64,000 nucleotides of DNA. Origin: an uncultured Acidobacteriota bacterium (GTDB taxonomy: Bacteria; Actinomycetota; Acidimicrobiia; Spongiisociales; ZC4RG35). The translations under genes were made by a program, and so were the position numbers. The stretch lies in NCBI GenBank assembly GCA_963828465.1, contig CAWHEU010000020.1, positions 32,001 to 96,000 on the forward strand, given 5' to 3'. Of the stretch, positions 34,095 to 54,405 are shown one piece after another (positions within the stretch are counted from its first letter, which is position 1; every line of letters starts with the position of its first letter). The notes under the pieces are model-generated. The model did not search any database and was not told the DNA's origin. It saw only the letters and a program-made list of their open reading frames with translations.

Positions 34095-35276
34095 TCAGTC
34101 ACGCAACCAGAGTGACATCGACTTTGGGTGCATGCTGTCTGCCGCCACGACCTGGAGATCTCGCCCCAGCTCGTCCAGGTCGACCTCGGTGCGGAGACGT
34201 TGTGCGAAGGCTTCAATGGTTCGGGACAGGTCGTAGCGGGTGCGGTTGAACCTGCGATCGACGATCGACTGGACTCGCCGACGAAGCGGGTTGAAGAGTG
34301 CCGCGACTGCCAAGGTCGAGGCGGCCACGACAAGGCTGTTTCCTTGTGCAGGAAGTAGGTCACCGAGCACGAAGACCAACGCGACATAGGTCAAAGCAAG
34401 AAGAGCGGTGACTGCACCGTATGACACCGTGCGGGAGATGATTCGGTCAATGTCATAGAGCCTGTATCGAAGGATCGCCATCCCGATCGAGACCGGCACC
34501 ACGGTGATTGACAACGCGGTCACGAGGTTCCCGGTGTCGTCGCTCAACTCGGTCGATCCATTGACCATGTCCCAAACAACGGTTCCCGCCAAACCGATCG
34601 CGAGCACCACGACGCCAAACGCCACCCACTTCAGTTGTTGCTTCTCTTCGGCCAAGGCGCGGCGATATCGGACGATCAGCGAGGACACCGAGGCCAGGAT
34701 CGATATCAGGGTCAAGTAGAACCCGCCTTCGAACACGCGGAGTATCGGGCTTGCCTCTTCGATGGCGAGCGGGTTCTCGATGGGAAGACCCTCGAAAGCT
34801 CCCGGGCCGAACAGGACCGCCGAGAACATCAAAGCCATGCCGATCGCCGACATCCAGCCCACCAACCTCCAGCGCGGCGAGGGGAGGCGACCGGTGGGGA
34901 ACAGAAGTAACAGAAATGTCGCCGACACCCCGAAGCCCAGCTGGAACATGAGATCGCCGAGCCAGACCGCCATCGGGCCAACGGGTAGGGAGCCCGGTTC
35001 GGCGACGGCAACCTCGACATAGGCGACCAGCAACGAGCCGGTGGCGAAGCCAAAGGCGGCGAGCCGGAGAAGCCACCCGATCGTGTTCCCGGGCCGGCGC
35101 AGCCCGATGAGGGTCCCAACGACGCCGGTGGTCACGACGAATAGCACCGTGGCGTAGGCTGTGGCGTCGGACCCAGGGCCCCGCCCGGTGAGAGTCGACA
35201 GGAAAATGGCGCCGACTATCTCGAGCATGATCAAGGCGAAGGTCGCGACCACAGGCCATGAACCGGATCGCTTCAT
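34095..35276 (-). CDS. Multi-pass membrane sensor-like protein, paralog R1
   Basis: RPGNTIGW, LLFPTGR, QQLKWV, RYRLYDIDRIISRTVSY..AALFNPLRRRVQ..DRRFNR..HPKSMSLWLR. Confidence 0.85.
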   Translation of the reverse strand: MKRSGSWPVVATFALIMLEIVGAIFLSTLTGRGPGSDATAYATVLFVVTTGVVGTLIGLRRPGNTIGWLLRLAAFGFATGSLLVAYVEVAVAEPGSLPVGPMAVWLGDLMFQLGFGVSATFLLLLFPTGRLPSPRWRLVGWMSAIGMALMFSAVLFGPGAFEGLPIENPLAIEEASPILRVFEGGFYLTLISILASVSSLIVRYRRALAEEKQQLKWVAFGVVVLAIGLAGTVVWDMVNGSTELSDDTGNLVTALSITVVPVSIGMAILRYRLYDIDRIISRTVSYGAVTALLALTYVALVFVLGDLLPAQGNSLVVAASTLAVAALFNPLRRRVQSIVDRRFNRTRYDLSRTIEAFAQRLRTEVDLDELGRDLQVVAADSMHPKSMSLWLRD

Positions 35277-35743
35277 GGTCGCATCGGCCGTTCATCGCGG
35301 ACGGTGTTTTCGCCGTGATTTCGACCCACCATCGTCAAGACGATCAGGATCACGGGCAGGACGATATTCGCGATCACAACGCCTGTCGTCAGCCCGACGC
35401 CCGATCCGGTCCGAAGCAGTCTCCACGTGATGGGTTCCGCAAGCATCCCGACTAGAAAACCCGCGGCGAGCACTGCCAGGGCAACCAACCCGACGTCAGC
35501 ATGTCCGCGTTCCCTGTGAAGCACCACGTTTGCCGCTACCAGGGCGATCAGTAGGACAAGAGGTGCGGACAGGGCGGTGCCCAGGCCGAAGACAAAGCTG
35601 GGCAGCGGGGCCATGCCTAGGTCCCAGCCGAAGGGACGGCCGGCCATACCCTCCTGCACCGCCACCCAGGTGCCCAGTGCCGCCGTACCGATGTAGAGCC
35701 CCGACACCGTTGTGATCGCCAACAGCCGACCGCTGACGTTCAC
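35273..35743 (-). CDS. Hypothetical integral membrane protein
   Basis: About four hydrophobic segments; stop overlaps the R1 start. Confidence 0.65.
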   Translation of the reverse strand: MNVSGRLLAITTVSGLYIGTAALGTWVAVQEGMAGRPFGWDLGMAPLPSFVFGLGTALSAPLVLLIALVAANVVLHRERGHADVGLVALAVLAAGFLVGMLAEPITWRLLRTGSGVGLTTGVVIANIVLPVILIVLTMVGRNHGENTVRDERPMRP

Positions 35744-35753
35744 ACTCCCGCTG

Positions 35754-36437
35754 CTACCGATCTTGACGTAGGAGTGTGCGCAGGGCCGAGTTCTTGTAGA
35801 TATTGGAGAACTGATTCCACTGTCGCTTCTTGTCGACCAGCTGCACGCTGGTCTCGACGACGGGCGTCACGATCCCGAAGTGCGCCGCTACCTGGGTCAG
35901 CGTGTGGGTCCAGATCCTGTCCTCCAGCCGTGAGGTGTAGAGCTTGAAGCTCGCCTCGTAGAGGGGGTCGTTGGCGCGCACCAAGAGATGGATTCGGGTC
36001 ACGGTCACTCCGTCATCCGCCTCATGGGCGCTGAATGTGATAATGGCCGCCCACGGATGGCCCTCTGGCGTCATGTATGACCAGGATCGATCGTCGGCGT
36101 AGATGACCCGGACGCCCGTCGTGATCTTGGCCGGCCCCTTACCCCCTCCGATAACAGCCACCTCACCGGGGGCGATGCCGCCTACCGGGGCGTAGAACTT
36201 GTTGTCGGGGTGCCAGAACTCGCCGAAGTTGGCCTTCCACGTGGCGATGACCTCTTCCGGTGTCGGGCCCGGGATGCGCACCTCATAGGTCTTCTGCCAC
36301 AGCTGGCCGAAGCCCTGCAGCGGGCCGGTGGGCTTGCGACCCTCCACGTTGCCCTTGCGTGCACCCTCGGCGACTTCCCCGACGTGGAAAGCATCCACCG
36401 GCTGTGCCCAATTCTCAGTATCCCTCGGCTCGGTCAA
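35754..36437 (-). CDS. Conserved-looking soluble hypothetical protein (possibly DUF1990/START-like)
   Basis: GAAAGGA RBS then TTG; GPLQGFGQLWQKTY, MTPEGHP, RANDPLYE; family assignment tentative. Confidence 0.65.
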   Translation of the reverse strand: MTEPRDTENWAQPVDAFHVGEVAEGARKGNVEGRKPTGPLQGFGQLWQKTYEVRIPGPTPEEVIATWKANFGEFWHPDNKFYAPVGGIAPGEVAVIGGGKGPAKITTGVRVIYADDRSWSYMTPEGHPWAAIITFSAHEADDGVTVTRIHLLVRANDPLYEASFKLYTSRLEDRIWTHTLTQVAAHFGIVTPVVETSVQLVDKKRQWNQFSNIYKNSALRTLLRQDR

Positions 36438-36477
36438 CTCGGTCCTTTCTCCGATGCCACCCACTAGACCACAGAGG

Positions 36478-36555
36478 CGTTCCGCCATCGTTACGGGCGA
36501 CTTCGTCCCGGCTCGAGTAGCTGGTGACCATGTCGTAACGCTCCTCGGGCACAAT
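36478..36555. promoter_or_regulatory. Two back-to-back GTAACG direct-repeat promoters (divergent)
   Basis: Minus: GTAACG-atggc-GGAACG (36478-36494). Plus: GTGACC-atgtc-GTAACG-N9-CACAAT (36524-36555). Confidence 0.6.
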
Positions 36556-36564
36556 CATGGGCAT

Positions 36565-37959
36565 ATGGTCGAATATGACGCAGTCGTCGTCGGCTCCGGC
36601 CCCAACGGGCTCTCCGCCGCCGCGGAGCTGTCACGACGCGGGCGAAGGGTGCTGGTAGTCGAGCAGGCCGACGAGATTGGTGGTGGGACCAGGACCGAGG
36701 AATTGACCCTTCCCGGGTTCGCCCATGACATCTGTTCGGCGATCCATCCCCTCGGTGTCGCCTCGCCATTCTTCCGCGACCTCGGGCTCGAGGTGGAGTG
36801 GGTGCATCCCGCCGTCCCCCTCGCCCACCCGCTCGGCGAAGGCCGAGCCGGAGTCGTTTTTCGAGACGTCGACGCCACTGCCGATCGATTCGGCCCAGAC
36901 GCCCGCCACTACACGCGAATCTTCGGGCCGCTGGTCGAGGCGGCAGATGCGGTGATGGAGGACTTCCTGGGACCAATGACCCTGGTCCCCGACAACCCGG
37001 GGAGCTTCGTCAAGCTGGCCACTCGGGGCGCCCTACCGGCTTCGATCATTGCCTCAGGGTTCTCCTCGGAGGAGGCCCGCGGCGTCCTCGCCGGTCTGGC
37101 CGCCCACGCCATCGCCCCGTTCAGCTCTCCCCTCACCGGAGGCGTGGCACTGCTCTTCGGGGTCGCTGCCCACGCATATGGCTGGCCGATGGCCCGCGGT
37201 GGATCACAACGAATCGCCGAGGCACTCGCCAAGATCATCCTCGACGGAGGCGGCAGCATCGAGACAGGCCGCATGATCGGCTCCATCGACGAACTTCCCA
37301 GCAACGACGCGGTCATTCTGGACGTGATGCCTCGTGCCGCCGTACGAATCGGCGGCGGCCGGGTCAGCCCTCGCGAGCGCCGCCGGATGACGGGTTTGAA
37401 GGTCGGGCCGGCTGTGTTCAAAGTCGACTGGGCCTTGGACGGCCCGATCCCGTGGGCAGACGAGTGGAGTCCCCAGGCCGGGACCGTCCATGTCGGCGGG
37501 ACCTGGGAGCAGGTCGCCGAAGCAGAGGACCAGGTTCACGCCGGGAATCATCCAGAGCGACCGCTGGTCCTGGTCGCCCAACAGTCCAGGTTCGACCCCA
37601 CCCGGGCGCCGGAGGGGAAACACACTGCCTGGGGCTACTGCCACGTCCCTTCGGGATCCGATGTCGACATGACCGAGGCGATCGAGACGCAGATGGAGCG
37701 TTTCGCCCCTGGCTTCAGGGACCTGATCCTCGAGCGGCACACCATGAACGCCGGCCAGTTCGAAGCGCACAACCCCAACTACATCCGGGGCGACATCGCC
37801 GGGGGCGGGTTCGGAGTGAAGAAGGTCTTCCAGCTCGGTGCGACGGCCCCGTATCGGATCGGCGACGGTCTTTTCCTGTGCTCGTCAGCCACCCCACCCG
37901 GAGCAGGGGTGCACGGTATGTGTGGCTACTACGCCGCCCGGGCCGCCCTCAAGGGCTAG
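36565..37959 (+). CDS. Phytoene-desaturase-like FAD-dependent oxidoreductase
   Basis: VVGSGPNGL..E, HDICSAIHP, FAPGFRD, CSSATPPGAGVHGMCG. Confidence 0.9.
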   Translation: MVEYDAVVVGSGPNGLSAAAELSRRGRRVLVVEQADEIGGGTRTEELTLPGFAHDICSAIHPLGVASPFFRDLGLEVEWVHPAVPLAHPLGEGRAGVVFRDVDATADRFGPDARHYTRIFGPLVEAADAVMEDFLGPMTLVPDNPGSFVKLATRGALPASIIASGFSSEEARGVLAGLAAHAIAPFSSPLTGGVALLFGVAAHAYGWPMARGGSQRIAEALAKIILDGGGSIETGRMIGSIDELPSNDAVILDVMPRAAVRIGGGRVSPRERRRMTGLKVGPAVFKVDWALDGPIPWADEWSPQAGTVHVGGTWEQVAEAEDQVHAGNHPERPLVLVAQQSRFDPTRAPEGKHTAWGYCHVPSGSDVDMTEAIETQMERFAPGFRDLILERHTMNAGQFEAHNPNYIRGDIAGGGFGVKKVFQLGATAPYRIGDGLFLCSSATPPGAGVHGMCGYYAARAALKG

Positions 37960-39172
37960 ACGGGGCAGGTGCTTCCTCCACACCTCGCACCCACATGCCA
38001 ATGGAATCGGGCTGCATGGTCGACGAGACCACATCGACCCAGCCGGTCGTCACCTCTTCAGGGTCGACTTGGTCCCGGAGGGAAAAAGCGAAGCCGTCCA
38101 TCACCCGCTGGGCGTCATAGCGCTGGCGATTGAACCGGCGGTCCACCCCACCCTGGACCCTCCTCCGGAGCGGATTGAACAGGGCAGCCACGACCAGCGT
38201 CGAGCCGGCCACTGCAAGGTCCGATGACTCGGTCGGCAGCAGAGATGACATCAAGGCGACCACACCGAGGAACGCTCCTGCCAACACCCCGACCACCAGG
38301 GCATAAGAAACCGTCCGGGACACGATCCGGTCGATCTCATAGAGCCGGTAGCGGAGGACGGCCACGCCGAACGAGAGTGGAAACAGAATCATCATCACGT
38401 AAGCGGGGCTCCAAGCATCATCACCCGGATCACCTGCGCCGATACCGATCGAGATGAAGATGTACATGAAGGTGCCGACCACCGCCGTGGTCAAGAGGAC
38501 GAAGGCGAAAACCACCCAGGTGAACTGAGCCCGCTCCGCGCCGACGGCGCGGCGCCTCTTGATCACAAGCGACACGGCCCCGCCGAGCAGAATGGCCACG
38601 ATGCCGAGGAGGGCGACATAACCGAGCCACTCGGGGAGAAAGCCGATTGGGTTGACCGTCTCGGTCGACGATTCGGCACCGCCCAGGGTCTCGGTGAGGG
38701 CGGTGGCGATCAGCAGGATCGGGAGCATCCTGACAGCCGCACGTCCTGCCCTGGCCCATAGACCGCTGCCCGCGGGCAGATGCCCGGAGGGAAAGGTCAA
38801 GGTCAGGACGGCGAACAGGCAAAACACCAGAGCCCAACCCCAGCTCGACACCCAGGCGGCGAGCACAGGGGAAACACCCGGCAGACCAATGAGCCCGTCG
38901 GCCCACAACACGGCCAAACCAATGAGGATCAGCAGCCAGCCGGTGGGGTGGCCGTCCCGACGTATGACGATCAGACCGCCGATCGCCGCATAGATCACAA
39001 AGCCGAAGGCGACGAGGACGTCGTCGGCGAGGGCACGATCTCCCAGTGTCAACTGAACGCCGGAGAGCCCAAGCCCGGCCGCGATGAGCAGGCCAAGCAG
39101 GGCCCAGCGAGCAAAACGATTGGGTCGAGCCGATGTCTCCGTCGACTCTGTCACGGGTTCCACCACGGCCAT
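37949..39172 (-). CDS. Multi-pass membrane sensor-like protein, paralog R2
   Basis: LTFPSG; RYRLYEIDRIVSRTVSY..LFNPLRRRVQ..RYDAQ..TMQPDSIGMWVR; start may be a GTG a few codons in. Confidence 0.85.
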   Translation of the reverse strand: MAVVEPVTESTETSARPNRFARWALLGLLIAAGLGLSGVQLTLGDRALADDVLVAFGFVIYAAIGGLIVIRRDGHPTGWLLILIGLAVLWADGLIGLPGVSPVLAAWVSSWGWALVFCLFAVLTLTFPSGHLPAGSGLWARAGRAAVRMLPILLIATALTETLGGAESSTETVNPIGFLPEWLGYVALLGIVAILLGGAVSLVIKRRRAVGAERAQFTWVVFAFVLLTTAVVGTFMYIFISIGIGAGDPGDDAWSPAYVMMILFPLSFGVAVLRYRLYEIDRIVSRTVSYALVVGVLAGAFLGVVALMSSLLPTESSDLAVAGSTLVVAALFNPLRRRVQGGVDRRFNRQRYDAQRVMDGFAFSLRDQVDPEEVTTGWVDVVSSTMQPDSIGMWVRGVEEAPAPSSP

Positions 39173-39296: not shown

Positions 39297-39647
39297 TTAA
39301 ACGGCGGCCAGGGCCGACGACTCGTCGTCGAAGATCTCGATCGCCTCGTCGAGACGAGTGAGCGAGAAGATCTGGGTGTAGTGATCAGTCAGGCCGTAGG
39401 CCATGAGTCGATGGCCACTGCGCTGAGCGCGGATCAGCGTGGTGACCAGGAGGCCAATGCCTCCACTGTTCATGTAATCGAGACCCTCGAAATTGAGTAC
39501 GACTGCGGCGACCCCGCCCTGCGAGGCCTCGTCGTGTGCGGCCGAGATCTCCTTCTCGGAGAACCCGGTGATCTCACCGGTGATGTCGATGACTCTGACC
39601 GTCGGAGTCGCCTCCCTCACGGTCATCGTCACATTGGCTGTTGGCAT
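39297..39647 (-). CDS. STAS anti-anti-sigma factor (RsbV-like) 2
   Basis: GGAGGA RBS; LDYMNSGGIG phospho-Ser motif; IFSLTRLD. Confidence 0.9.
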   Translation of the reverse strand: MPTANVTMTVREATPTVRVIDITGEITGFSEKEISAAHDEASQGGVAAVVLNFEGLDYMNSGGIGLLVTTLIRAQRSGHRLMAYGLTDHYTQIFSLTRLDEAIEIFDDESSALAAV

Positions 39648-39661
39648 TTTCCTCCCTCTCC

Positions 39662-40003
39662 TCACCCGGCCGCTACTGCGGCCGTCTCATCGTCATAGAT
39701 AGTCATGAAATCGGACAGACGGGTGATGTTGAACACCTCCCGATAGTGCTCGGTCAGACCGAAAGCGCCGACCTCACGGTCCTCCGCCCGGGCCATGGCC
39801 AGCACCCCGACGATGACCGCGATCCCGGTGGAATTGATGTAGTCCACCCCCCGGAAGTCCATCAGGATCCGCCCGGGATGGGCGGCCGCTTCCTCGTAGG
39901 CCGTCTCCAGGTCCTGCTTGGCTGCCCGGTTCACGGTCCCGCTCATGACCACCACCGAACCCTCGTCGGTCCTGGCCACCGTTGCCTCGAACACGCTCTC
40001 CAT
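39662..40003 (-). CDS. STAS anti-anti-sigma factor (RsbV-like) 1
   Basis: VDYINSTGIA phospho-Ser motif; VFNITRL. Confidence 0.9.
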   Translation of the reverse strand: MESVFEATVARTDEGSVVVMSGTVNRAAKQDLETAYEEAAAHPGRILMDFRGVDYINSTGIAVIVGVLAMARAEDREVGAFGLTEHYREVFNITRLSDFMTIYDDETAAVAAG

Positions 40004-41592
40004 CAGGAAGCTCCTTCCCTGTTCATCACGAGCTCAATCGTGTGGGTTGCACCGTCACTGGTCGAGCGCACCTCGTCGACCATCTTCTCGATCAGGAACA
40101 GACCCCATCCACGAGGGGTTTGCTGTCCGGCGAGCTTGGCGTCGAGGTCGGGCACTGTGGCCTCCGGGATCAACCGGTCGCCACCCTGATCGCTGACCAG
40201 GACACTGACCGATTCGTCGTTGGCACAAACCTGGACATCTACGTCGAGCTCGGAGCGATTCTCGTTTCCATGCTCGATGGCGTTCATCACGGTTTCGCCA
40301 ACCGCGGTCTTGAGCCGCTCGAGCCGTGCCGGCTCTAGACCGAGCTCGTCGACTGCCGCCGTCACCTTGGCGATGGCGATGCGCTCATTTCCCTCTTCGC
40401 TGGGTATGGCGAACTTCGCCAGGACCTGCCGCCGGTCCTCGAATGTCTCTGCAGAAGTCTGAGCCGAGGAGGTCCGCTTCACGACGACGAGCGTGATGTC
40501 GTCTTCCTGCTCGGCGCCCTCACCGGTGAAGGCCTCCAGTTCGGTGACCACGGCGTTGAGGACGTCGTCGTTGATCGGCCTCCGGGCAACGCGGTCCATG
40601 AGCCGGGCAAACCCGTACATCTCACCTTCGGCGTTGTGGGCCTCGGTGATCCCGTCACTGGTCAGGACCATCACCTCGCCCGGCGACATCTCATACTTGG
40701 TCTCGTCGTAACCCATCCCGGGCATGAGCCCGAGGGGCATGCCGGTGGCCCTCAACTCGAGGACCCCGCCATCGTGCCTCACATAGGGCAGGTTGTGGCC
40801 GGCGTTGGCGAACACCACCTTCCCGGCCTCGGTATCGATGATTGCGTAGAGACAGGTCACGAACATGGCCGGCGGGATCTCCGGCACCAGGCCATCGTTG
40901 ACATCGGCCAGGACTGCCGACGGAGAGGTGTGACGCTGGGCTGCGGCCCGCAACATCGATCGACAGGTGGCCATCACCAGTGCGGCGGGCACGCCCTTGT
41001 CGGTGACGTCCCCGATGACCACACCGAGCCGACCATCTTCGAGCGCGATGAAGTCGTAGAAGTCGCCGCCAACTGCCCGCGCCGGGCGATAGAAAGCGTC
41101 GACCTGCCAGCCGGCGATCGCCGGCAATTCCTTGGGGAGGAGGGTCTGTTGGATCAGGGCCGCGACCTGGAGCTCCTGGTGGATGCGTTCCCGCTCCTTG
41201 GCCTCGGCCTGCTGCTCGCGGACGAGTTGGGCCACCTTCATGGCCGGAGCCACCTGCGAGGCGAGGCTGCCGAGAAGCCTGCGGTCGTCGGTCGAATAGG
41301 GCTGGTCGGAGAGCCGGGGGCCGAGGTAGAGGGCGCCGAGAAGCTCCCCCTGGCCGATGAGGGGCACGATGAGCTCCACACCGGCTTCTCTGAGCGTGTC
41401 CACCGTCTCCGACTCCAGTTCGAGGTCGCGCAACACGACAGGCCCGCCCGAGGTCAGGAGAAGCGTCTCCAACGGATCGCCTAGCGGAATAGGGATGGCC
41501 TCGATCAGCCGGGTCTTCGACTCCGGGATCTGTGTTTCGTCTCCGACAGGTGTCTCTTCTTCGGCTCTGCGCCGTCTCATCAGCTGAACCAT
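40003..41592 (-). CDS. Partial GAF + SpoIIE/RsbU PP2C phosphatase + RsbW-like Ser kinase (HATPase_c_2) fusion, 529 aa
   Basis: VPLIGQGELLGALYLG..DDRRLL; IQQTLLP; VGGDFYD; GDVTDKGVPAAL; NAGH; SDGITEA; DDIT; ETVMNAIEHG; DQG; RGWGLFLI. Confidence 0.92.
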   Translation of the reverse strand: MVQLMRRRRAEEETPVGDETQIPESKTRLIEAIPIPLGDPLETLLLTSGGPVVLRDLELESETVDTLREAGVELIVPLIGQGELLGALYLGPRLSDQPYSTDDRRLLGSLASQVAPAMKVAQLVREQQAEAKERERIHQELQVAALIQQTLLPKELPAIAGWQVDAFYRPARAVGGDFYDFIALEDGRLGVVIGDVTDKGVPAALVMATCRSMLRAAAQRHTSPSAVLADVNDGLVPEIPPAMFVTCLYAIIDTEAGKVVFANAGHNLPYVRHDGGVLELRATGMPLGLMPGMGYDETKYEMSPGEVMVLTSDGITEAHNAEGEMYGFARLMDRVARRPINDDVLNAVVTELEAFTGEGAEQEDDITLVVVKRTSSAQTSAETFEDRRQVLAKFAIPSEEGNERIAIAKVTAAVDELGLEPARLERLKTAVGETVMNAIEHGNENRSELDVDVQVCANDESVSVLVSDQGGDRLIPEATVPDLDAKLAGQQTPRGWGLFLIEKMVDEVRSTSDGATHTIELVMNREGAS

Positions 41593-41599: not shown

Positions 41600-41631
41600 T
41601 TTCTATCTCTCCATCGTCCCGAAATCGTTAC
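41600..41631 (-). promoter_or_regulatory. Internal GTAACG direct-repeat promoter of the phosphatase-STAS-STAS unit
   Basis: Minus: GTAACG-atttc-GGGACG-N9-TAGAAA-N7-ATG. Confidence 0.55.
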
Positions 41632-46016: not shown

Positions 46017-46017
46017 G

Positions 46018-48335: not shown

Positions 48336-49489
48336 GCTCCCTCCCTCAGCCACACCCCCGCCGACGCCGGATGCATCGTCCTGGAAACAACATCCACCCA
48401 ACCGCTGACCAGCTGTCGCCCGTCGACCCGATCTCGCAACGAGCCGGCGAATTCATCGATCACCCGCTCGGCGTCGTAACGGGAGCGGTTGAATCGGCGG
48501 TCGACGAACCCCTGGACGCGTTTTCGCAGAGGGTTGAACAAGGCTGCCACGGCCAAGGTGGCCGCGGCGACGGCCAGGGGGGACTCCGTGTCGAGCATGG
48601 AGGTGAGCCCGGTCAGGCCCAACGCATATGTCGCTCCGAGCACGACGACCACGATGACGTATGAGACGGTCCGGGAGAAGATTCGATCGATGTCGTAGAG
48701 GCGGTACCGGAGGACTGCCAGCGAGATGGAGACAGGTAGGCCGACGACGGCGACCCCGAGCAGGAGATTGTTGAGCCAGAGGGGCATCACCTGTTCCGGG
48801 ATGAACATCCAGGCGACGAAGAAGATCGCATCGATGGCCAGCCACTTCAGCTGCTGGCGCTCTACTCCCTTGGCCTTCAAGAGACGCACCGCGAGGGAGG
48901 CGACTGCCAAGACGAGAACGACGACCATGATCGCGAGAATCGGCGTGGAGATCGCCCCATACTCCGGGTTGGGCACTCCCGGGATGCCGATCGGGTTGTC
49001 GACCCAGACATCGCACTGGCTGTCGGACCCTTCGACGCAGAGACTTTCCGCGAAGAGGCCTGTGATTCCAACGAAGCCCACGAAAAGACCCCCGAGCCAC
49101 TGCACCCACCGCCAGCGCGGCGACGGCACCCGGCCGGTGGGGAACCACAGGACGAGAAAGCCGACCGAGATGAACCAGCTGGTCCACATCCAGTAGCTGA
49201 TGGCTCCGCCAAGCACCCAGCCCTGTCCGCCGAGCCCCACCGCCACCCCGCTCACTACGAGCAGCATGCCGTTGGCGGTCAGTACCCATCCCACTCGATG
49301 ACCGGGCACCCGGCTCATCACCAGCGAGCCCATGAACACGAATGCCAGGGCGGCGGCGAGGAGTATGTAGGTGGAGCCGTCCTCCTCGCCCTGGCCGATC
49401 CCGGGGCCAGCGAAGGCGAACACGGCGAGCACTCCGAGGGCGATCCCCATGTTGATGGGGATCCAGGGGATGGACCTGCCTGATCTCAC
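48332..49489 (-). CDS. Membrane sensor-like paralog R9
   Basis: LWFPTGR; Cys-pair loop; RYRLYDIDRIFSRTVSY..TMHPASAGVWLR. Confidence 0.85.
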   Translation of the reverse strand: MRSGRSIPWIPINMGIALGVLAVFAFAGPGIGQGEEDGSTYILLAAALAFVFMGSLVMSRVPGHRVGWVLTANGMLLVVSGVAVGLGGQGWVLGGAISYWMWTSWFISVGFLVLWFPTGRVPSPRWRWVQWLGGLFVGFVGITGLFAESLCVEGSDSQCDVWVDNPIGIPGVPNPEYGAISTPILAIMVVVLVLAVASLAVRLLKAKGVERQQLKWLAIDAIFFVAWMFIPEQVMPLWLNNLLLGVAVVGLPVSISLAVLRYRLYDIDRIFSRTVSYVIVVVVLGATYALGLTGLTSMLDTESPLAVAAATLAVAALFNPLRKRVQGFVDRRFNRSRYDAERVIDEFAGSLRDRVDGRQLVSGWVDVVSRTMHPASAGVWLREGA

Positions 49490-50687
49490 GCCCCGTCCCT
49501 CAACCAGACGCCGGCCGAGACCGGCCGCATCGTCTCGGACACGACATCCACCCAGCCACCGACCACCGAGTCGGGATCGACCTCATCGCGCAGGGACCCG
49601 GTGAACCCCGCCATGACCCGCTCGGCGTCGTACTTGGTCCGGTTGAAGCGGTGGTCGACGAAGGCCTGAACCCGTCTCCGCAATGGGTTGAACAACGCGG
49701 CTGCGGCCAGGGTGGCGGCAGCAACGGCTAGCGGTGACTCCGAATCGAGGAGGGAGGTCAGCCCGGTCAGCCCGATTGCGTAGACCGAGGCGAGGACAGC
49801 GATGACGATGGCATAAGACACTGTGCGGGAGATGATCCGATTGATTTCATAGAGGCGGTAGCGGAGGATGGCGAGCGTGGCGGCGATCGGGATGGCGAGG
49901 ATCGACAACGAGATCCAAGCGTCGACCAGGAATGGTGGCTCGAAAGTGCCAAGTGCCTCGAGGACTATCTCGGCACCAAGGGCCGCCACGAAGGAGGCGC
50001 ATGCAAAGAGGAACCACTTCAATTGGAGTCGCTCGATGGTCCCGGCCTTCCGGTACCGCATGAAGAGCGACAGGACCGCTCCGCCCATGAACACCGGGTA
50101 CAAGGCGAAGAGGGGTCCACCCAGCCAGCCGAACTCTGGGTTGGGCACTCCGGGGATGCCAATCGGGTTGGCGGCCCAAACCGCACAGCCACCCGCACCG
50201 GAGGTATCGATACAGAGCTGCTCGGTGAAGATGTAGGTGAAAAAGGTCACTGCCAAGAGTCCGAATCCGACCCACTGCAGCCACAACCAGCGTCTGCTCG
50301 GGACATGCCCCGTTGGGAACCACAAGACCAGGGTTCCGATCAGAACGATCCAACCAAGCCAGAGGGCACCACCAATAGCTTCAAAGGCCAGCGAGCCCTG
50401 ATCGGCCAGGCCGCCGGCGATCGCCGCACCGAGGAACATCAGCCCGATGGCAGCTGAAAATCCAACCGACCCGGTTGCCTGCTGCCTTCCACAGGATGAG
50501 ATCGCCGAGGAAGAGGAACAACAGCATCGTCGCCAAGTTCAGGAGGGTGTCTGCAATCCCAGGTGGCCTCCCACCAGCCCACAAGCCTGCCCACTACCAG
50601 CGCGGCCAGCGACACCACGCTGACGATCGCCACGACGAGCGCGGCCGTCTTGTCGGCGCCCCTGACCGGCACCTCTCCATCCCTCAT
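49486..50687 (-). CDS. Membrane sensor-like paralog R10 (first gene of the array; two apparent frameshifts near 50575 and 50450)
   Basis: Three consecutive frames join into TM1, GNRVGWIFS and the family body ending TMRPVSAGVWLR. Confidence 0.75.
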
Positions 50688-50727: not shown

Positions 50728-50834
50728 GGGCCCCCGGCACGGAACAGCTCGCGATCCGTTCCGGCTTGACGACGAAGTTCTCATAGCCGTAACGATGCGA
50801 ACTACCTTTGCACCGCCGACCCAGGTTCTCCTTC

Positions 50835-53576
50835 ATGCTCGATATCAAGTTGCTCGGCCAACCCGATGTGTCCATATCCGGACGCCCCGTCGTGGTCGAC
50901 ACCCGCAAGGCCATCGCCCTCCTCGCCTACCTGGTGGTGGAGAAATCAGCGAGCAGGGACACGTTGGCCGGCTTGTTCTGGGCCGATGCCTCCCAGGAAC
51001 GGGCTCGGGCGACACTGCGCCGGACCCTGTCAGCCCTGCAGGGGGCAACCGGGACCGAACTCATCGATGCCGACCGAAATCTCATCACGCTCGTAGGCGA
51101 CGTCAGCTCGGACCTCGACATCCTGAAGCGGGAGTTGGAGGCCACAAGCGAGCATGGCCATGACTCCCGCGATGTTTGCGACCGATGCATCCCGCATCTG
51201 CGCCGCGCCACCAGCCTCTATCGGGGCGACTTCCTCGCAGGCTTCTCCGTCAAGGCGTCACCCGAGTTCGACGATTGGGTGAGGAGTGTCGCCGAGTCGA
51301 CCCGGATTCGAATCGGTGAGGCGTTCAACCGGCAGGGAACTGCATTGGCGGCCGCCGGCGAGTACCCCGCAGCAATCAACGCCGTTGCCCAATGGATCGA
51401 GCTCGACCCGCTGCACGAACCGGCACACCGCTTTCTCATGCTGCTCCACGCTTGGGCCGGTGACCGGCCCGGCGCCATCGAGGCATATCGCAACTGCGTG
51501 ACCATTCTCGACCAGGAGCTCGGGGTTGCCCCTCTCGAGGAGACGACCGAGCTCTACGAGGCCATCCTCGACGAAGACCTCCCGCCTGCCCCGGGCGCTC
51601 CGCGAAGGGTTAAGGCCGAGATCGCGACTCGACGTCAGCCACGGCCTGACTTGATCGATCGGGAGGCCGAGCTCGTCCAACTGCAGGAGGCGCTGGGCAG
51701 CACCTCGAGCGGAAGCGGGCTCGTCTTCGCCCTGACCGGAGCCCCGTGGATGGGGAAGACACGTCTTCTGGAGGAGCTGGCCTCGATCGCATCCACAGAC
51801 CGGGATGTCCTGATCGGCCGCGCTTTCCGAATGGAGCAGACTCTGCCGTACGGGGTCGCCGCCCAGGTCCTTGGCGGTGCATCCGCCCGAATCGATGCCC
51901 TGCGGGACGAGCTCCCGGAATGGGCCATGAATGAGCTCGGCAGGCTCTCGCCCGGATTCGCCCCGGCTGCCGGCGAGACGACTCACGACCGATTCGGCGA
52001 ACTGCGGCTGCTCGAGGGGATCCAAACGGTGATGTCCGTCCTGGCCCGAGAACGTCCGATGTTGATCATCCTGGACGACGCGCAGTGGATGGATACGTCA
52101 TCCGCAGCCCTCTTCTCCTACCTGGCACGTCGCATCTCGGAGATGCCGGTGGTCATGGTGGTGGCGGCCAGGGCGGAGGACGATCTCCTCCCGGCCGTCG
52201 CCGAGATGATGGCTGCGGCGGATCAGTCGGCTGCCATGCGCCCGCTCACCCTCCAGCACTTGCTCCCGCTGGTGGGCGGTGACGAGAACGCGGCAAGGCG
52301 GCTCCGGGAGAAGACCGGAGGTGTCCCGCTTCTCGTCAACGAGGCCCTCGCCAACGATGTCGACACGCTGCCCGCCACCCCCGGCATGGCGCGATACATG
52401 GAGGCGCGGCTCCTGGAGATCGACGATCTGGGCCGGCAGATCCTCACGGCGGCGGCGGCGCTCAACGGCATCTGTGACGCGACCCTCCTCAGAGAGACGA
52501 GCGGGCGAAGTGAGGAAGAAGTGGTGGAGGCCGTCGAGGAGCTCGTCGCCGCCGGACTACTGAGGGAGATCCCCGAATCAGAAGGTCTCAGCTTCACGCT
52601 CGATGCGCTCGAACGGGTCACCTACGAAACGACCTCCATGGTCCGGCGCCGTCTGCTCCATCGTCGTGCCGCCCGTGCCCTGGCCGAACGGGGGTATTCC
52701 CGATCCGATGCCCGGCTCGCCGCGGCCGTCGCCGGGCAGTATCGAGCGGCGGGCGATCCCGAGGCGGCGGCCTGGTACCACCTTGCCGGGGATTTGGCCC
52801 AGTCGATGTTCGCCAACGAGTCCGCTGTCCAGTTCTACGAAACCGCTCTCGCGTTGGATGACCCCGACATCTCCGGTGCCCGACTCGCTCTCGGAGAGCT
52901 GGCCATGGCCGGCGGAGATTACGACCGGGCCCGACGCGAGCTGACCCTGGCCTCGTCAAATGCCGGCCCGGATTCCATCGGTGTCATCGAGCATCGGACC
53001 GGTGAGGTCGAGCGTCTGCTCGGCCGGTTCGAAGACGCCGAAGAGCATTTCCAGCGATCCATCGAGAATCATCCGGCTCCGGCGGCCGTGCTCGCCGACT
53101 GGGCGCTCCTGGCGTACCGAACTGGAGATGGGGCGAAGGCGGTGACCCTGGCCGGCCGTGCCAGAGATGCCGCCGAGCGGGAAGACGATCCTGCCCAGAT
53201 GTCCCGGGTCCGCAACATCCTCGCCGTGGTGACGTCCGATCACGACGAGGCGTTGGAGCATGTCGAGGAGGCGATGCGTCTCGCTCGTGACGACGATCTG
53301 CTCCGCATGGCCGCCCTGAACAACAAGGCGCTGTTGCTATCCGACAACGGGGAGACCGGTCGTTCGATCGAGCTCGTCGAAGAGGCCATCGCCATCGCGG
53401 AGCGGACCGGGCACCGTCATCGGGAGGCCGCGCTCTGGAACCACATGGCCGATCTCCATCATCGCGCCGGCCGGGAGAACGATGCGCGTCAATCTCTCAC
53501 CACCGCCGTCTCACTCTTCGCCGATATCGACTCGGGCGACCTGGAGCCCGAGTTGTGGCTCCTCTCCCGTTGGTGA
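50835..53576 (+). CDS. SARP/AfsR-like regulator: wHTH-BTAD-AAA ATPase-TPR
   Basis: IKLLG..KAIALLAYL..LAGLFW; LYRGDFL..FDDW; DPLHEPAHR; LDQELGVAP; GAPWMGKT; ILDDAQWMD; TPR tail. Confidence 0.92.
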   Translation: MLDIKLLGQPDVSISGRPVVVDTRKAIALLAYLVVEKSASRDTLAGLFWADASQERARATLRRTLSALQGATGTELIDADRNLITLVGDVSSDLDILKRELEATSEHGHDSRDVCDRCIPHLRRATSLYRGDFLAGFSVKASPEFDDWVRSVAESTRIRIGEAFNRQGTALAAAGEYPAAINAVAQWIELDPLHEPAHRFLMLLHAWAGDRPGAIEAYRNCVTILDQELGVAPLEETTELYEAILDEDLPPAPGAPRRVKAEIATRRQPRPDLIDREAELVQLQEALGSTSSGSGLVFALTGAPWMGKTRLLEELASIASTDRDVLIGRAFRMEQTLPYGVAAQVLGGASARIDALRDELPEWAMNELGRLSPGFAPAAGETTHDRFGELRLLEGIQTVMSVLARERPMLIILDDAQWMDTSSAALFSYLARRISEMPVVMVVAARAEDDLLPAVAEMMAAADQSAAMRPLTLQHLLPLVGGDENAARRLREKTGGVPLLVNEALANDVDTLPATPGMARYMEARLLEIDDLGRQILTAAAALNGICDATLLRETSGRSEEEVVEAVEELVAAGLLREIPESEGLSFTLDALERVTYETTSMVRRRLLHRRAARALAERGYSRSDARLAAAVAGQYRAAGDPEAAAWYHLAGDLAQSMFANESAVQFYETALALDDPDISGARLALGELAMAGGDYDRARRELTLASSNAGPDSIGVIEHRTGEVERLLGRFEDAEEHFQRSIENHPAPAAVLADWALLAYRTGDGAKAVTLAGRARDAAEREDDPAQMSRVRNILAVVTSDHDEALEHVEEAMRLARDDDLLRMAALNNKALLLSDNGETGRSIELVEEAIAIAERTGHRHREAALWNHMADLHHRAGRENDARQSLTTAVSLFADIDSGDLEPELWLLSRW

Positions 53577-53580
53577 GCCC

Positions 53581-53612
53581 GTAACGCTGCCGTACCGCAC
53601 CACCGAAAGTAT
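53581..53612 (+). promoter_or_regulatory. GTAACG direct-repeat promoter of the cupredoxin lipoprotein
   Basis: GTAACG-ctgcc-GTACCG-N9-AAGTAT immediately after the SARP stop. Confidence 0.6.
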
Positions 53613-53637
53613 CCAGGCAAACGACTGAAGGAGAGTC

Positions 53638-54405
53638 ATGGGGAGAGCAACACCGCGTAAGTCTTGGATCCTGATGGTGCCGGCCTTGGTCTTGGCGGCC
53701 TGCAGCGGAGGCCCGTCCGCCGACGTATCTGCCTTCTGTGATTCAGTTGTGAATGTGGAGGCACTGCTGTCGAGCGAACCCGATGATTCGGCAGCCTGGG
53801 CAGAGGAGGCCACTACCGCCCTGACTGCCCTCCAGGAGGACGCCCCCGACGAAGTCTCCGGAGCCGTTGGGACCATCACGGATGCCCTGATCCCCGCCAT
53901 CGAGTCCGGTGACGAGGAGCAGTTCTTCGCCGCATTCGAAAGCGAGGAAGTCGGCGAGGCCTCAGAGGTGGTCGACTCTTACATGGTTGATGAGTGCGGC
54001 TGGGAGGTCACCCCGGTCACCGCCAGGGAGTACGAGTTCGAGGGCGATCTTGACGGGCTCGAGGCAGGCATGAACGGCCTCGGGTTCGAGAACGGCGGGA
54101 CCGAGTTGCACGAAATGGTCCTGTTCCGCATCAACGACGACGCCACCGAGAGCATCGACGAGCTGCTCGCCCTCCCCGAGGAGGAGGCACAGGGGAAGGT
54201 GACAGATGCCGGAGGCGCCTTCGGATTCCCGGGGGACACCGACACAGTGTTCGTCGATCTCGACCCCGGTCGCTACGCCATCGTGTGCTTCCTGCCTATG
54301 GGCGCCACTCCCGACAACATGGAGGCTCTCGAGTCCGGGGAGTTCGACGATGCACCGCCACATTTCACGCAGGGAATGTTCCGGGAGTTCACCGTCGAGG
54401 GTTGA
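53638..54405 (+). CDS. Lipoprotein with C-terminal cupredoxin-like (type-1 copper) domain
   Basis: Lipobox LAAC; HEMVL...GRYAIVCFLP...PHFTQGM gives His/Cys/His/Met ligands. Confidence 0.75.
   Translation: MGRATPRKSWILMVPALVLAACSGGPSADVSAFCDSVVNVEALLSSEPDDSAAWAEEATTALTALQEDAPDEVSGAVGTITDALIPAIESGDEEQFFAAFESEEVGEASEVVDSYMVDECGWEVTPVTAREYEFEGDLDGLEAGMNGLGFENGGTELHEMVLFRINDDATESIDELLALPEEEAQGKVTDAGGAFGFPGDTDTVFVDLDPGRYAIVCFLPMGATPDNMEALESGEFDDAPPHFTQGMFREFTVEG

What the first reader, a model, noticed from the sequence alone, without database searches (positions are those of the whole stretch)
34095..54405. Candidate new system: a bank of ten receptors feeding one partner-switching module through a split GAF domain
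Seen: ten paralogous multi-TM proteins with no catalytic domain all end in the same cytoplasmic tail (LFNPLRxRVQxxVDRRFNRSRYDAxxVxxxFxGSLRDxVDxxxVVxGWVxVVxETMQPxxAGVWVR) and stop within a few residues. The only downstream enzyme (40003-41592) has no TM segment and starts with IPLGDPL..ELIVPLIGQGELLGALYLGPRLSDQPYSTDDRRLLGSLASQVAPAM, then a coiled coil, PP2C and RsbW-like kinase. Known: in one-piece TM-GAF-SpoIIE or TM-GAF-kinase sensors these two segments correspond to the N-terminal helices plus first strand, and the remaining strands plus last helix, of one GAF domain (recalled, not searched). Inference: the GAF is genetically split, so any receptor can complete the fold in trans and plug into one shared phosphatase/kinase acting on two STAS proteins. 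This would be a many-input, one-output array like chemoreceptors, but for partner switching.
Basis: partly seen in the sequence, partly recalled or inferred. Interest (0 to 1): 0.92.

Follow-up and report, generated by a model that had tools for sequence, protein, structure and literature searches.

The report
Membrane receptor bank with split GAF
Many paralogous membrane receptors each end in the first helix and strand of a GAF sensor domain, while one soluble phosphatase-kinase next to them starts with the rest of that domain, which suggests a plug-in signalling design not found described in the papers searched.

Summary
Ten paralogous multi-TM genes lie at 34095-50439 on the minus strand. 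Eight are intact, one has a frameshift in its tail and one is broken at its 5' end. They flank a 529-aa SpoIIE/PP2C plus RsbW-like kinase and two STAS genes.

The tail is the most conserved part of the receptors. In one-piece relatives the tail profile and the phosphatase N-terminal profile hit the same chain, in order and without overlap, and Pfam's whole GAF profile spans both. Alone, the phosphatase matches only GAF positions 47-132, and its AlphaFold model lacks the first helix and strand.

Receptors and half-GAF enzyme co-occur tightly. In a class sample, 24 of 27 tail-positive genomes hold the enzyme, against 0 of 274 tail-negative ones. In a phylum sample the figures are 60 of 80 and 0 of 321. 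The genes are usually adjacent.

The one complex prediction gave only weak support (0.55, best control 0.00). Physical complementation in trans is therefore likely but unproven.

The split GAF is well supported. The many-inputs, one-output model is plausible. The system is not peculiar to this genome: it is widespread in Actinomycetota, its receptors are unannotated, and my literature searches found no description of it.

The parts
34095..35276 (-). Receptor 1 (393 aa), variant tail ending ...MSLWLRD
   Evidence: ORF and translation. Tail profile match. Its orthologue holds the same place in G003 (L014).
37949..39172 (-). Receptor 2 (407 aa), directly downstream of the STAS genes. It has orthologues in that position in most loci of the genus.
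39297..39665 (-). STAS protein B (122 aa), anti-sigma-factor-antagonist type, with an NSGG motif
   Evidence: Pfam STAS 8.5e-13. NCBIfam ant_ant_sig 6.2e-14. Syntenic in all loci examined.
39662..40003 (-). STAS protein A (113 aa), with an NSTG motif
   Evidence: Pfam STAS 7.9e-10. NCBIfam 4.9e-12. Synteny.
40003..41592 (-). Half-GAF, coiled-coil helix, SpoIIE/PP2C phosphatase and RsbW-like HATPase_c_2 kinase (529 aa, no TM segment)
   Evidence: Pfam. AlphaFold model. Closest solved structure is 3KE6, the RsbU and RsbW domains of Rv1364c. 116 of the 120 best database relatives are 501-578 aa.
41188..41517 (-). The GAF remainder within the enzyme (about residues 26-135): strand 2 to the last helix. 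Residues 1-25 upstream of it are modelled as disordered.
   Evidence: GAF profile positions 47-132 match residues 33-117. DSSP of the model gives H40-48, H62-69, E74-80, E83-90 and H101-151. The segment aligns after the tail in one-piece forms.
41603..42818 (-). Receptor 3, adjacent to the enzyme. One extra G near 41687-41690 shifts the frame of its tail. The other frame keeps the orthologous ending ...VWIRNDFGTMER.
   Evidence: A 96%-alike soil-metagenome contig lacks one letter at 41687.
42752..43810 (-). Receptor 4 (about 346-352 aa; start uncertain)
43789..44916 (-). Receptor 5 (375 aa)
44913..46091 (-). Receptor 6 (392 aa as the longest ORF)
46018..47286 (-). Receptor 7 (422 aa as the longest ORF)
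47217..48401 (-). Receptor 8 (394 aa). Its TM core gives a sub-threshold match to Pfam HisKA_7TM.
   Evidence: HisKA_7TM 6.3e-6, 26.6 bits against a cut-off of 28.6, residues 65-276.
48332..49489 (-). Receptor 9 (385 aa). Its tail served as first row of alignment A1 and as the partner in the complex job.
49486..50439 (-). Receptor 10 (317 aa ORF). The tail is intact. The 5' part is broken over three frames compared with the 415-aa orthologue.
50808..53576 (+). SARP/AfsR-like regulator (BTAD, AAA_16, TPR), divergent from the array and syntenic with it. Membership in the system is inferred from synteny only.
   Evidence: Pfam. It sits next to the array in 11 of the 12 loci L013-L024 and in L036 and L037.
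35754..36554 (-). DUF1990-like protein, conserved neighbour. In more distant genomes it directly follows STAS B. Role unknown.
   Evidence: Weak Pfam DUF1990 match, 0.0022. Synteny (L018, L024, L036, L037, L038).

Best explanation
This is a partner-switching sensor in which one GAF domain is encoded in two genes.

Each receptor has about ten TM helices, with a core distantly like the 7TM region of histidine kinases. It ends in a cytoplasmic piece of about 70 residues: a juxtamembrane helix, then the first GAF helix and first GAF strand, then a stop.

The soluble 529-aa enzyme begins with about 25 disordered residues. Then come GAF strand 2 through the last GAF helix, which runs on as a long linker helix into a SpoIIE/PP2C domain and a fused RsbW-like kinase domain.

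Shown here:
- the two pieces map in order and without overlap onto the single GAF of one-piece relatives;
- both truncation points are conserved in the related genomes examined;
- the two gene types are adjacent and co-inherited;
- the receptor tails are conserved while the TM parts diverge.

Inferred:
- a receptor tail docks into the incomplete sheet of the enzyme and completes the fold;
- docking brings the enzyme to the membrane and sets the state of the linker helix, and so the balance of phosphatase against kinase activity on the two STAS proteins;
- the many paralogous receptors (19 tail-bearing ORFs in this genome, including two frameshifted copies and two fragments; one enzyme) are alternative inputs to one output.

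The target of the STAS proteins is unknown.
For: 1. Pfam finds only GAF profile positions 47-132 of 133 in the enzyme.

2. In 15 of 42 longer relatives examined, both the tail profile and the enzyme N-terminal profile hit at E<=1e-3. In all 15 the tail hit comes first and there is no overlap. One of the 15, P0272, is a chimeric ORF.

3. Pfam's whole GAF profile spans both pieces in three relatives: P0276 (residues 436-585), P0303 (450-604) and P0274 (504-688).

4. Five one-piece TM-GAF-SpoIIE genes from the same order join the pieces directly. Alignment A5 shows contiguous coverage.

5. The AlphaFold model of the enzyme alone has residues 1-25 below pLDDT 50. Its N-domain has only two long strands and lacks the first helix and strand.

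6. In the model of P0274, which holds both pieces in one chain, the tail equivalent (H483-500, H505-520, E524-529) has pLDDT 91-96.

7. Co-occurrence:
- Relatives: 25 of 25 enzyme-positive genomes hold receptors at E<=1e-35, against 1 of 16 enzyme-negative ones.
- Class sample: 24 of 27 tail-positive and 0 of 274 tail-negative genomes hold the enzyme. Four genera are polymorphic, with the same genomes positive in both searches.
- Phylum sample: 60 of 80 tail-positive and 0 of 321 tail-negative genomes.

8. A receptor lies directly upstream of the enzyme in 11 of 12 loci L013-L024 and in L036 and L037.

9. Among the eight intact paralogues, mean pairwise identity is 0.14-0.35 over TM helices 1-7 and 0.52-0.79 over the tail.

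10. The complex prediction of tail plus enzyme residues 1-135 gave weak support.
- The score was 0.55 (runs 0.53, 0.55, 0.58) and the best of 3 controls was 0.00. The runs agree in at least 83% of contacts, and the partner's pLDDT is at least 60.
- The mark was reached by 58 of 80 solved complexes and 2 of 110 mismatched pairs.
- At 0.60 or under, only 7 of those 80 solved complexes reached it, and so did both mismatches that passed.
Against: There is no experimental evidence of binding. The only complex prediction is rated weak, and no interface was returned.

The tools gave no coordinates or error maps. That the tail strand pairs with the GAF sheet in the P0274 model is therefore inferred from DSSP and pLDDT only. 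P0274 may itself be a read-through of two genes.

Some genomes break the pattern. G242, G326, G524, G641 and G689 hold strong tail matches but no clear half-GAF enzyme was found. All are draft assemblies.

In G010 and G120 the enzyme has no adjacent receptor.

Co-occurrence is partly expected for genes of one cluster, and related genomes are not independent.

One enzyme would have to accept visibly different tail variants, for example GVWVR and MSLWLR.

No sigma factor or other output was found among the neighbouring ORFs scanned.
Confidence: 0.55

Rival explanations
1. Fission relic without complementation. An ancestral TM-GAF-PP2C gene broke apart. The receptors now act on their own or through another partner, and keep the tail for their own folding or dimerisation. 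The enzyme works with a degenerate N-domain and is regulated otherwise.
For: The complex prediction is only weak. The enzyme's N-domain is modelled with pLDDT 84-89 without a partner. A few genomes hold receptors but no enzyme was found. Nine tail-bearing ORFs lie on contigs other than the enzyme's.
Against: The tail, including its last strand, is the most conserved part of the receptors. It is retained in thousands of cluster representatives, and in 147 of the 150 listed the match runs to the same end point of the query. No genome without tails held the enzyme: 0 of 274 and 0 of 321. Loss and presence go together within four genera. Adjacency is conserved across several families of the phylum.
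Confidence: 0.25
2. The receptors do bind the enzyme through the split GAF, but as membrane anchors or sequestering (inhibitory) partners rather than as distinct signal inputs. Copy number would then tune dosage or localisation, not signal variety.
For: The structural and genomic evidence is the same as for the main explanation. The number of adjacent receptors varies from 0 to 8 between species of one genus, as expected for a dispensable, dosage-like component. Two of the ten copies here are damaged.
Against: The TM regions have diverged strongly while remaining open reading frames (0.14-0.35 identity). That looks like diversified sensing rather than mere anchoring. The TM core resembles a sensor-kinase 7TM module (as a lead only).
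Confidence: 0.12
3. Artefact. The split comes from assembly errors, pseudogenes or wrong gene calls in a draft metagenome-assembled genome.
For: The assembly is a 29-contig draft with 4.8% contamination. Two receptor copies carry frameshifts. At least one database 'fusion' (P0272) is a chimeric call.
Against: The stop after the tail and the start of the enzyme recur in independent genomes. 54 of 56 tail hits in fetched loci end at most 25 residues after the match. Enzyme orthologues lie in open frames of 529-534 aa, bounded by a stop just upstream. 116 of the 120 best database relatives are 501-578 aa.
Confidence: 0.02

Closest known systems
One-piece multi-TM, GAF and SpoIIE/PP2C sensors, with sister forms carrying histidine-kinase or adenylate-cyclase outputs
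   Same: They have the same TM module, the same juxtamembrane motif (FxPxRRRxQxxVDRRFxRxxYD), the same small GAF and the same linker helix into PP2C. Examples are L025-L028 and L039 in the same order, P0276-P0298 (GAF-PAS-kinase), P0301 and P0303 (cyclase), and a TM-GAF-cyclase in this very genome at C25:115565-117562.
   Different: Here a conserved stop follows GAF strand 1, and the rest of the GAF starts a separate soluble protein. The receptor half is amplified to many copies per genome. The enzyme half also carries a fused RsbW-like kinase.
Rv1364c of Mycobacterium tuberculosis (PAS, RsbU-like PP2C, RsbW-like kinase and STAS in one chain; PDB 3KE6)
   Same: PP2C and the anti-sigma-type kinase are fused in one polypeptide and act on a STAS antagonist. 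It is the best structural match of the enzyme model (Foldseek E 1.6e-20; sequence E 1.6e-11). Its architecture is described in passages of PMC12143880.
   Different: Rv1364c has a complete N-terminal PAS sensor and a fused STAS domain. It has no membrane receptors and no split domain.
Bacillus subtilis stressosome with RsbT and RsbU (several RsbR paralogues feeding one PP2C)
   Same: Several paralogous sensors, variable in the sensing part and conserved in the output part, converge on one PP2C. That PP2C's N-terminal domain is activated by binding a partner protein in trans through a helical linker (abstract and passages of PMC12143880; abstract of PMC11821858 in the listing).
   Different: The stressosome is cytoplasmic, built of STAS-domain proteins, and signals through release of the kinase RsbT. 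Here the sensors are membrane proteins without a STAS domain (0 Pfam hits at E<=0.1). The proposed contact is completion of a split fold.
Chemoreceptor arrays
   Same: Many paralogous membrane receptors with a conserved cytoplasmic tip would serve one shared enzyme. This comparison is recalled, not tested.
   Different: There is no homology. No CheA, CheW, methylation or HAMP modules were seen, and nothing shows array formation.

Membership tests
GAF domain (Pfam PF01590 / PF13185), enzyme alone | A match over the whole profile, that is a complete fold with the first helix and first strand | tested here: not met
   Only profile positions 47-132 of 133 (PF01590) and 63-135 of 136 (PF13185) match, at residues 33-118. 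The model lacks the first helix and strand.
GAF domain, receptor tail and enzyme N-terminus taken together | The two pieces cover one GAF contiguously and without overlap | tested here: met
   In one-piece relatives the tail profile and the enzyme N-terminal profile hit in order without overlap. This holds for all 15 of the 42 examined in which both hits reach E<=1e-3. The whole Pfam GAF profile spans both in P0276, P0303 and P0274. Alignment A5 agrees. The tail alone gives no Pfam GAF hit.
Partner-switching module (RsbU / RsbW / RsbV type) | PPM/SpoIIE phosphatase with conserved metal-binding aspartates | tested here: met
   SpoIIE 2.3e-53. D177, D195, D313, D364 and D365 are invariant in 66 orthologues. 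That these are the metal ligands is recalled, not tested.
Partner-switching module (RsbU / RsbW / RsbV type) | Anti-sigma-type serine kinase (HATPase_c_2) | tested here: met
   HATPase_c_2 5.7e-19. NCBIfam spIIAB 8.7e-13 and RsbW 3.2e-9, both below the equivalog cut-offs. Anti-sigma F factor and RsbW chains appear among the PDB hits.
Partner-switching module (RsbU / RsbW / RsbV type) | STAS antagonist with a phosphorylatable serine | tested here: met
   Two STAS proteins are present (Pfam 7.9e-10 and 8.5e-13; NCBIfam ant_ant_sig). NSTG and NSGG motifs are seen. The position of the phospho-serine is recalled from SpoIIAA and RsbV.
Partner-switching module (RsbU / RsbW / RsbV type) | A sigma factor or other target released by the switch | tested here: inconclusive
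   No sigma factor was found among the neighbouring ORFs scanned. The rest of the window and genome was not scanned for one.
HisKA_7TM (Pfam PF16927), receptor TM core | A match above the gathering score | tested here: inconclusive
   1 of 5 receptors scanned matches, at 6.3e-6 and 26.6 bits against a cut-off of 28.6, over profile positions 11-222 of 224. The ESM Atlas's nearest named cluster is HisKA_7TM at 0.84, a lead only.
One-piece TM-GAF-SpoIIE sensors | Sensor, GAF and phosphatase in a single polypeptide | tested here: not met
   A conserved stop follows the tail, and the enzyme gene is separate and in another frame. Enzyme orthologues lie in 529-534-aa open frames.
Stressosome (RsbR / RsbS / RsbT) | STAS-domain scaffold proteins and an RsbT kinase | tested here: not met
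   The receptors have no STAS or other Pfam domain. Only the two small STAS proteins and the fused kinase are present. No RsbR-like gene was seen in the loci, though it was not searched genome-wide.

The most novel reading that the evidence does not exclude
Fold completion as a signalling interface. A family of 7TM-type receptors, amplified to a dozen or more copies per genome, each carries the first helix and strand of a GAF domain as a universal plug. A single cytosolic half-GAF PP2C-kinase is the socket. Assembly of one domain from two proteins couples many membrane inputs to one partner-switching output. The design is widespread: it was seen in 60 of 401 sampled genomes of the phylum.
Probability: 0.45. 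Interest if true: 0.9.

Novelty: new variant of a known kind. Interest (0 to 1): 0.8.

Why it matters
If receptor tails complete the GAF of the enzyme in trans, this would be a natural case of signalling by split-domain complementation. It would also be a membrane counterpart to the stressosome, with many sensors and one PP2C.

It would give a function to a very large unannotated membrane-protein family. That family has 19,298 cluster representatives at E<=1e-3 and no qualifying Pfam or NCBIfam match. Only one of five receptors scanned gave even a sub-threshold Pfam match.

It would explain the odd, conserved N-terminus of a common actinobacterial 'SpoIIE family phosphatase'.

It is directly testable with two-hybrid, pull-down and STAS-dephosphorylation assays. 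It also offers a ready-made natural scaffold for engineering modular sensors.

Even without binding, the data document a clean, ancient gene fission inside a domain, followed by massive amplification of one half.

Tried and rejected
**Read-through or frameshift fusion of the adjacent receptor with the enzyme.** Rejected. The two genes are in different frames, and the orthologues keep a stop and a conserved Shine-Dalgarno-like stretch between them.

**Extra half-GAF partners near dispersed receptors.** The GAF histidine kinases at C8:26156-27346 and C2:41064-42662 have complete GAF domains. A profile of the enzyme's N-terminus finds no second half-GAF in the genome.

**P0272 as a 'Rosetta stone' fusion.** Rejected. 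This 1410-aa protein is a chimeric ORF that runs through two receptors and the enzyme, with out-of-frame stretches. The 70-residue Ala/Gly/Pro-rich linker of P0274 may likewise be a read-through, so its model is treated as a tethered-complex prediction.

**Alignments A3 and A4.** MAFFT pushed the enzyme's first 30-60 residues onto the tail columns. These alignments were not used for folding. A5, with the enzyme rows cut at the start of the GAF remainder, was used instead.

**Open-frame length as a test for fusion.** This proved unreliable in such GC-rich DNA. The window's own 529-aa gene lies in an 838-aa open frame.

**Sequencing runs.** No run held half of the sampled words. RNA runs held small shares only, so nothing is claimed about expression or habitat. 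One DNA contig served only to show an intact frame in a relative.

**Literature.**
- 'split GAF domain': 0 papers.
- 'GAF domain' + 'partner-switching' + SpoIIE + transmembrane: 0 papers.
- Five partner-switching terms, at least four required: 5 papers, none on this system judging from their listings.
- Five phrases for partial, truncated, incomplete, half or in-trans GAF: 3 unrelated papers.

Supplements were closed, and subscription journals are not in the library.

**Unpublished genomes.** The co-occurrence counts include genomes flagged as unpublished: G018, G027 and G038; G281; and G343, G371, G403, G409, G438, G488, G548, G621 and G687. No locus was fetched from any of them.

Full report
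**What is there**

The window is G000:C20:32001-96000 of a 3.07-Mb, 29-contig draft genome of about 64% G+C. Near-identical database proteins are named by their sources as coming from Acidimicrobiia metagenome-assembled genomes.

On the minus strand between 34095 and 50439 lie ten paralogous ORFs of 317-422 aa. No Pfam match reaches E<=0.1 in three of them, and no NCBIfam match reaches E<=0.01 in two. Seven stand head to tail upstream of 41592 and an eighth abuts them. The other two lie downstream of the enzyme.

Between them are three genes:
- a 529-aa protein (40003-41592) with SpoIIE/PP2C (2.3e-53) and HATPase_c_2 (5.7e-19);
- two STAS proteins (39662-40003 and 39297-39665).

The copy next to the enzyme has one extra G near 41687-41690. 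The shifted frame still reads ...WVDVVSETMHPTSISVWIRNDFGTMER*, the ending of its orthologues in at least seven other genomes. A 96%-alike contig from a soil metagenome lacks one letter at 41687. The last copy is broken over three frames at its 5' end compared with its 415-aa orthologue. Whether these two defects are real or assembly errors cannot be told.

**The bank is larger than ten**

A profile of the tail finds 19 ORFs in the assembly: ten on this contig and nine on C2, C8, C9, C18, C25 and C26. All 19 end 0-18 residues after the match. Two of the nine are fragments or frameshifted, and the C2 and C8 pairs are nearly identical.

Only one protein in the genome starts with a GAF remainder.

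Among the eight intact paralogues in the window, mean pairwise identity varies by region:
- 0.14-0.35 over the first seven or so hydrophobic segments;
- 0.56-0.62 over the last two TM helices with the RYRLYxIDR loop;
- 0.52-0.79 over the tail.

One of five receptors gives a near-threshold match to Pfam HisKA_7TM (6.3e-6; 26.6 bits against 28.6; profile positions 11-222 of 224). The ESM Atlas calls its nearest clusters 'hypothetical protein', commonest in Actinomycetota, and the nearest named cluster is HisKA_7TM at 0.84, which is a lead only.

**Is the GAF split?**

Pfam matches the enzyme's residues 33-117 to GAF profile positions 47-132 of 133. The first third of the domain is missing.

One-piece relatives exist.
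- In the same genome there is a TM-GAF-adenylate-cyclase (C25:115565-117562).
- In five genomes of the same order there are 664-866-aa TM-GAF-SpoIIE frames, one of them cut by a contig end. In these the tail motif runs straight on into the sequence that matches the enzyme's N-terminus.
- Among 37 longer database relatives there are GAF-PAS-histidine-kinase, HisKA_3-kinase, cyclase and SpoIIE forms.

I built profiles of the tail (A1, 53 rows) and of the enzyme's first 128 residues (from A2). I then searched 42 such sequences.
- 40 gave both hits, always tail first and without overlap.
- In 15 of the 40, both hits have E<=1e-3. One of these, P0272, later proved to be a chimeric ORF.
- The other two of the 42 (P0271, P0273) are tandem receptor-receptor proteins that end in the tail.

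Pfam's whole GAF profile spans both pieces in P0276 (residues 436-585, with the tail hit at 397-466), P0303 (450-604, tail 410-466, remainder 501-610) and P0274 (504-688, tail 463-531, remainder 597-699).

So the tail consists of about 40 residues of juxtamembrane helix followed by the first 30 or so GAF positions (first helix and strand 1). The enzyme begins at strand 2. A clean alignment (A5) shows this contiguous, non-overlapping coverage.

**Structure predictions**

The enzyme alone (AlphaFold2, 66-row alignment, mean pLDDT 79.5) has residues 1-25 below pLDDT 50. Its N-domain comprises H40-48, a two-residue bridge, H62-69, E74-80, E83-90 and a long helix H101-151 that leads into the PP2C domain. 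It has no first helix and no first strand, so it is not modelled as a complete GAF by itself.

The best solved match of the model is 3KE6, the RsbU and RsbW domains of M. tuberculosis Rv1364c (Foldseek E 1.6e-20; phmmer E 1.6e-11).

P0274 holds both pieces in one chain, separated by about 70 Ala/Gly/Pro-rich residues. It was folded with A5 (mean pLDDT 74.6).
- The tail equivalent forms H483-500, H505-520 and a six-residue strand E524-529, at pLDDT 91-96.
- The linker (545-589) is below pLDDT 50.
- The remainder repeats the elements of the enzyme model at pLDDT of about 94.

No coordinates are returned. That the strand pairs with the GAF sheet is therefore inferred. P0274 may itself be a read-through of two genes.

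The single complex job used the tail of receptor 9 with A1, and enzyme residues 1-135 with A2. It gave weak support.
- The score was 0.55 (runs 0.53, 0.55, 0.58), and the best of three controls was 0.00.
- The runs agreed in at least 83% of contacts, and the partner's pLDDT was at least 60.
- By the tool's calibration the mark was reached by 58 of 80 solved complexes and 2 of 110 mismatched pairs.
- At 0.60 or under, only 7 of those 80 reached it, and so did both mismatches that passed.

**Comparative genomics**

The enzyme is a conserved protein. 2654 proteins match its first 150 residues at E<=1e-3. Of the 120 best, 116 are 501-578 aa and share 70-99% identity over the N-terminus. In several genomes the orthologue lies in a 529-534-aa open frame, so the start is not further upstream.

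The receptor family is very large. It has 19,298 representatives at E<=1e-3 and 3312 at E<=1e-30. Of the 150 best, 128 are 340-450 aa, and in 147 the match ends at query residues 394-407.

In 12 fetched loci of relatives (L013-L024) the gene order is as follows: a divergent SARP-like regulator, then 0-8 receptors, the enzyme, STAS A, STAS B, often one more receptor, then an FAD oxidoreductase and a DUF1990-like gene. A receptor sits directly upstream of the enzyme in 11 of the 12 loci; the exception is G010. A genome of another family of the class (G216) and one of another genus (G041) keep the order receptor(s), enzyme, STAS, STAS, DUF1990. In G120 the enzyme has no neighbouring receptor, but 13 tail matches lie elsewhere in that genome.

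Of 56 tail hits in these loci, 54 end at most 25 residues after the match. One of the other two is a one-piece form and the other a read-through into the next receptor.

**Co-occurrence**

| Sample | Genomes with tails or receptors | Of those, with the half-GAF enzyme | Enzyme in genomes without tails |
|---|---|---|---|
| 41 relatives | 26 with receptors at E<=1e-35 | 25 | 0 of 15 |
| Class, 301 genomes | 27 with tails (E<=1e-8) | 24 | 0 of 274 |
| Phylum, 401 genomes | 80 with tails (E<=1e-6; 64 at E<1e-20) | 60 (E<=1e-50) | 0 of 321 |

*Relatives.* All 25 enzyme-positive genomes hold receptors. The 16 enzyme-negative genomes break down as follows.
- One, G016 (69% complete), has a strong receptor match, at a contig end.
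- Five have only weak matches (E 1e-16 to 1e-21).
  - In G011 and G036 the tail-profile matches lie in 728-878-aa frames, that is in one-piece sensors.
  - G007 and G032 gave no tail match.
  - G026 holds a one-piece form plus a kinase-domain fragment.
- Ten have no match.

*Class sample.* The three tail-positive exceptions are G242 (one receptor), G326 (a stand-alone receptor plus a one-piece 820-aa form) and G129 (one weak hit). Four genera are polymorphic, with 3 of 4, 4 of 6, 1 of 4 and 1 of 2 genomes positive, and the same genomes are positive in both searches.

*Phylum sample.*
- 50 of the 60 best enzyme matches lie in frames of 396-680 aa, too short to hold a TM domain as well.
- Four genomes with strong tails lacked an enzyme match (G524, G566, G641, G689).
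- A search with the N-terminus alone then found a match in G566 (1.5e-26) but only weak or no matches in the others.
- In one family the enzyme ends after the PP2C domain (396-410-aa frames), so the fused kinase is not universal.
- In at least 20 of these distant genomes, tail and enzyme matches lie within about 10 kb on one contig (coordinates).

Kin are not independent, and genes of one cluster travel together. The counts also include genomes flagged as unpublished, listed under Tried and rejected. Still, the dispersed receptor copies share the distribution of the enzyme.

**How it most likely works**

Shown here:
- one GAF is encoded in two genes;
- both halves are under purifying selection at the break;
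- the two genes are linked and co-inherited;
- the variable part of the receptors is the membrane part.

From established knowledge: in PPM phosphatases of partner-switching systems, N-terminal sensor domains (PAS, receiver, GAF, HAMP) act through a helical linker. RsbU is switched on when RsbT binds its N-terminal domain in trans. This is taken from the abstract and passages of PMC12143880.

Inferred:
- The tail's helix and strand insert into the enzyme's incomplete sheet. The break lies in the strand 1 to strand 2 turn, a position that carries a long insertion in P0274.
- Docking tethers the enzyme to a receptor and stabilises or re-orients the GAF-linker helix.
- That shifts the balance between the PP2C and the fused RsbW-like kinase acting on the two STAS proteins. 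Both STAS proteins keep a serine in an NS(T/G)G motif (its role is recalled from SpoIIAA and RsbV).

The output is not known. No sigma factor was seen among the neighbouring ORFs scanned. The conserved neighbours are a SARP-like regulator and a DUF1990-like protein.

I give about 0.55 to functional coupling through trans-completion. The rivals:
- 0.25: a fission relic whose halves no longer touch.
- 0.12: binding that serves anchoring or sequestration rather than distinct inputs.
- 0.02: an artefact.

**Comparison and novelty**

The parts are ordinary: a TM sensor module, GAF, PP2C, an RsbW-like kinase and STAS. One-piece versions are common.

Three things are unusual:
- a conserved break inside a domain;
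- a single soluble socket.

The closest functional analogue, with many paralogous sensors feeding one PP2C through a partner that binds its N-domain, is the stressosome with RsbT and RsbU. It shares no sensor homology with this system.

Four literature searches found no description of a split GAF or of this receptor family. Subscription journals and supplements were not searchable.

I rate it a new variant of a known kind, with high interest. The comparative evidence is strong, the family is large and unannotated, and the key claim can be tested with simple binding and phosphatase assays.

Noticed in passing
window 50808-53576 (+): A 922-aa SARP/AfsR-like regulator (BTAD, AAA_16, TPR) is divergent from the receptor array. 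It keeps this position in 11 of the 12 loci L013-L024 and in L037; in L036 it lies next to the array on the same strand. It could control the operon or be its target.
   Followed up: partly
window 35754-36554 (-); L018, L024, L036, L037, L038: A DUF1990-like gene directly follows STAS B in the more distant genomes. In this genus it is separated from STAS B by a receptor and an FAD oxidoreductase (36328-37959, +). It is a conserved member of the neighbourhood, of unknown role.
   Followed up: partly
G000:C25:115565-117562 (+): The same genome holds a one-piece relative: the receptor-type TM domain, a complete small GAF and an adenylate/guanylate-cyclase-like C-terminus.
   Followed up: partly
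G000:C8:21405-27346 and G000:C2:41064-48775: Two contigs carry nearly identical pairs of receptors, each with a GAF-HisKA_3 kinase a few kb away. They may be strain duplicates in the assembly (contamination 4.8%) rather than true paralogues.
   Followed up: no
P0271, P0273; L018:14453-16534 (-): Tandem receptor-receptor proteins of about 811 aa end in the tail. One locus has an open frame that runs from one receptor's tail straight into the next receptor. Receptor genes may fuse head to tail.
   Followed up: no
phylum sample, family f63 (e.g. G470:C13:539268-540368, G445:C167:20006-21127): In one family the half-GAF phosphatase ends after the PP2C domain (396-410-aa frames). The RsbW-like kinase is therefore not fused there and may be a separate gene.
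   Followed up: no
window 41596-41640 (-): The last codons of the adjacent receptor (…RNDFGTMER) and the spacer before the enzyme's ATG are nearly identical in nucleotides between G000 and G003. They include a GGAGAG stretch. The conserved C-terminal extension probably reflects the enzyme's translation start region.
   Followed up: partly
window 54951-56878 (+): A 426-aa ORF has weak HisKA_3 and HATPase_c matches and hydrophobic N-terminal segments. It is followed by a NarL/LuxR-type response regulator (Response_reg 1.2e-21, GerE 3.6e-13). This looks like an ordinary two-component pair.
   Followed up: no
window 27315-29891 (-) and 29957-32052 (+): An 858-aa AAA_16-LuxR regulator lies next to an ABC-2 type transporter pair (ABC_tran, ABC2_membrane_3).
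   Followed up: no
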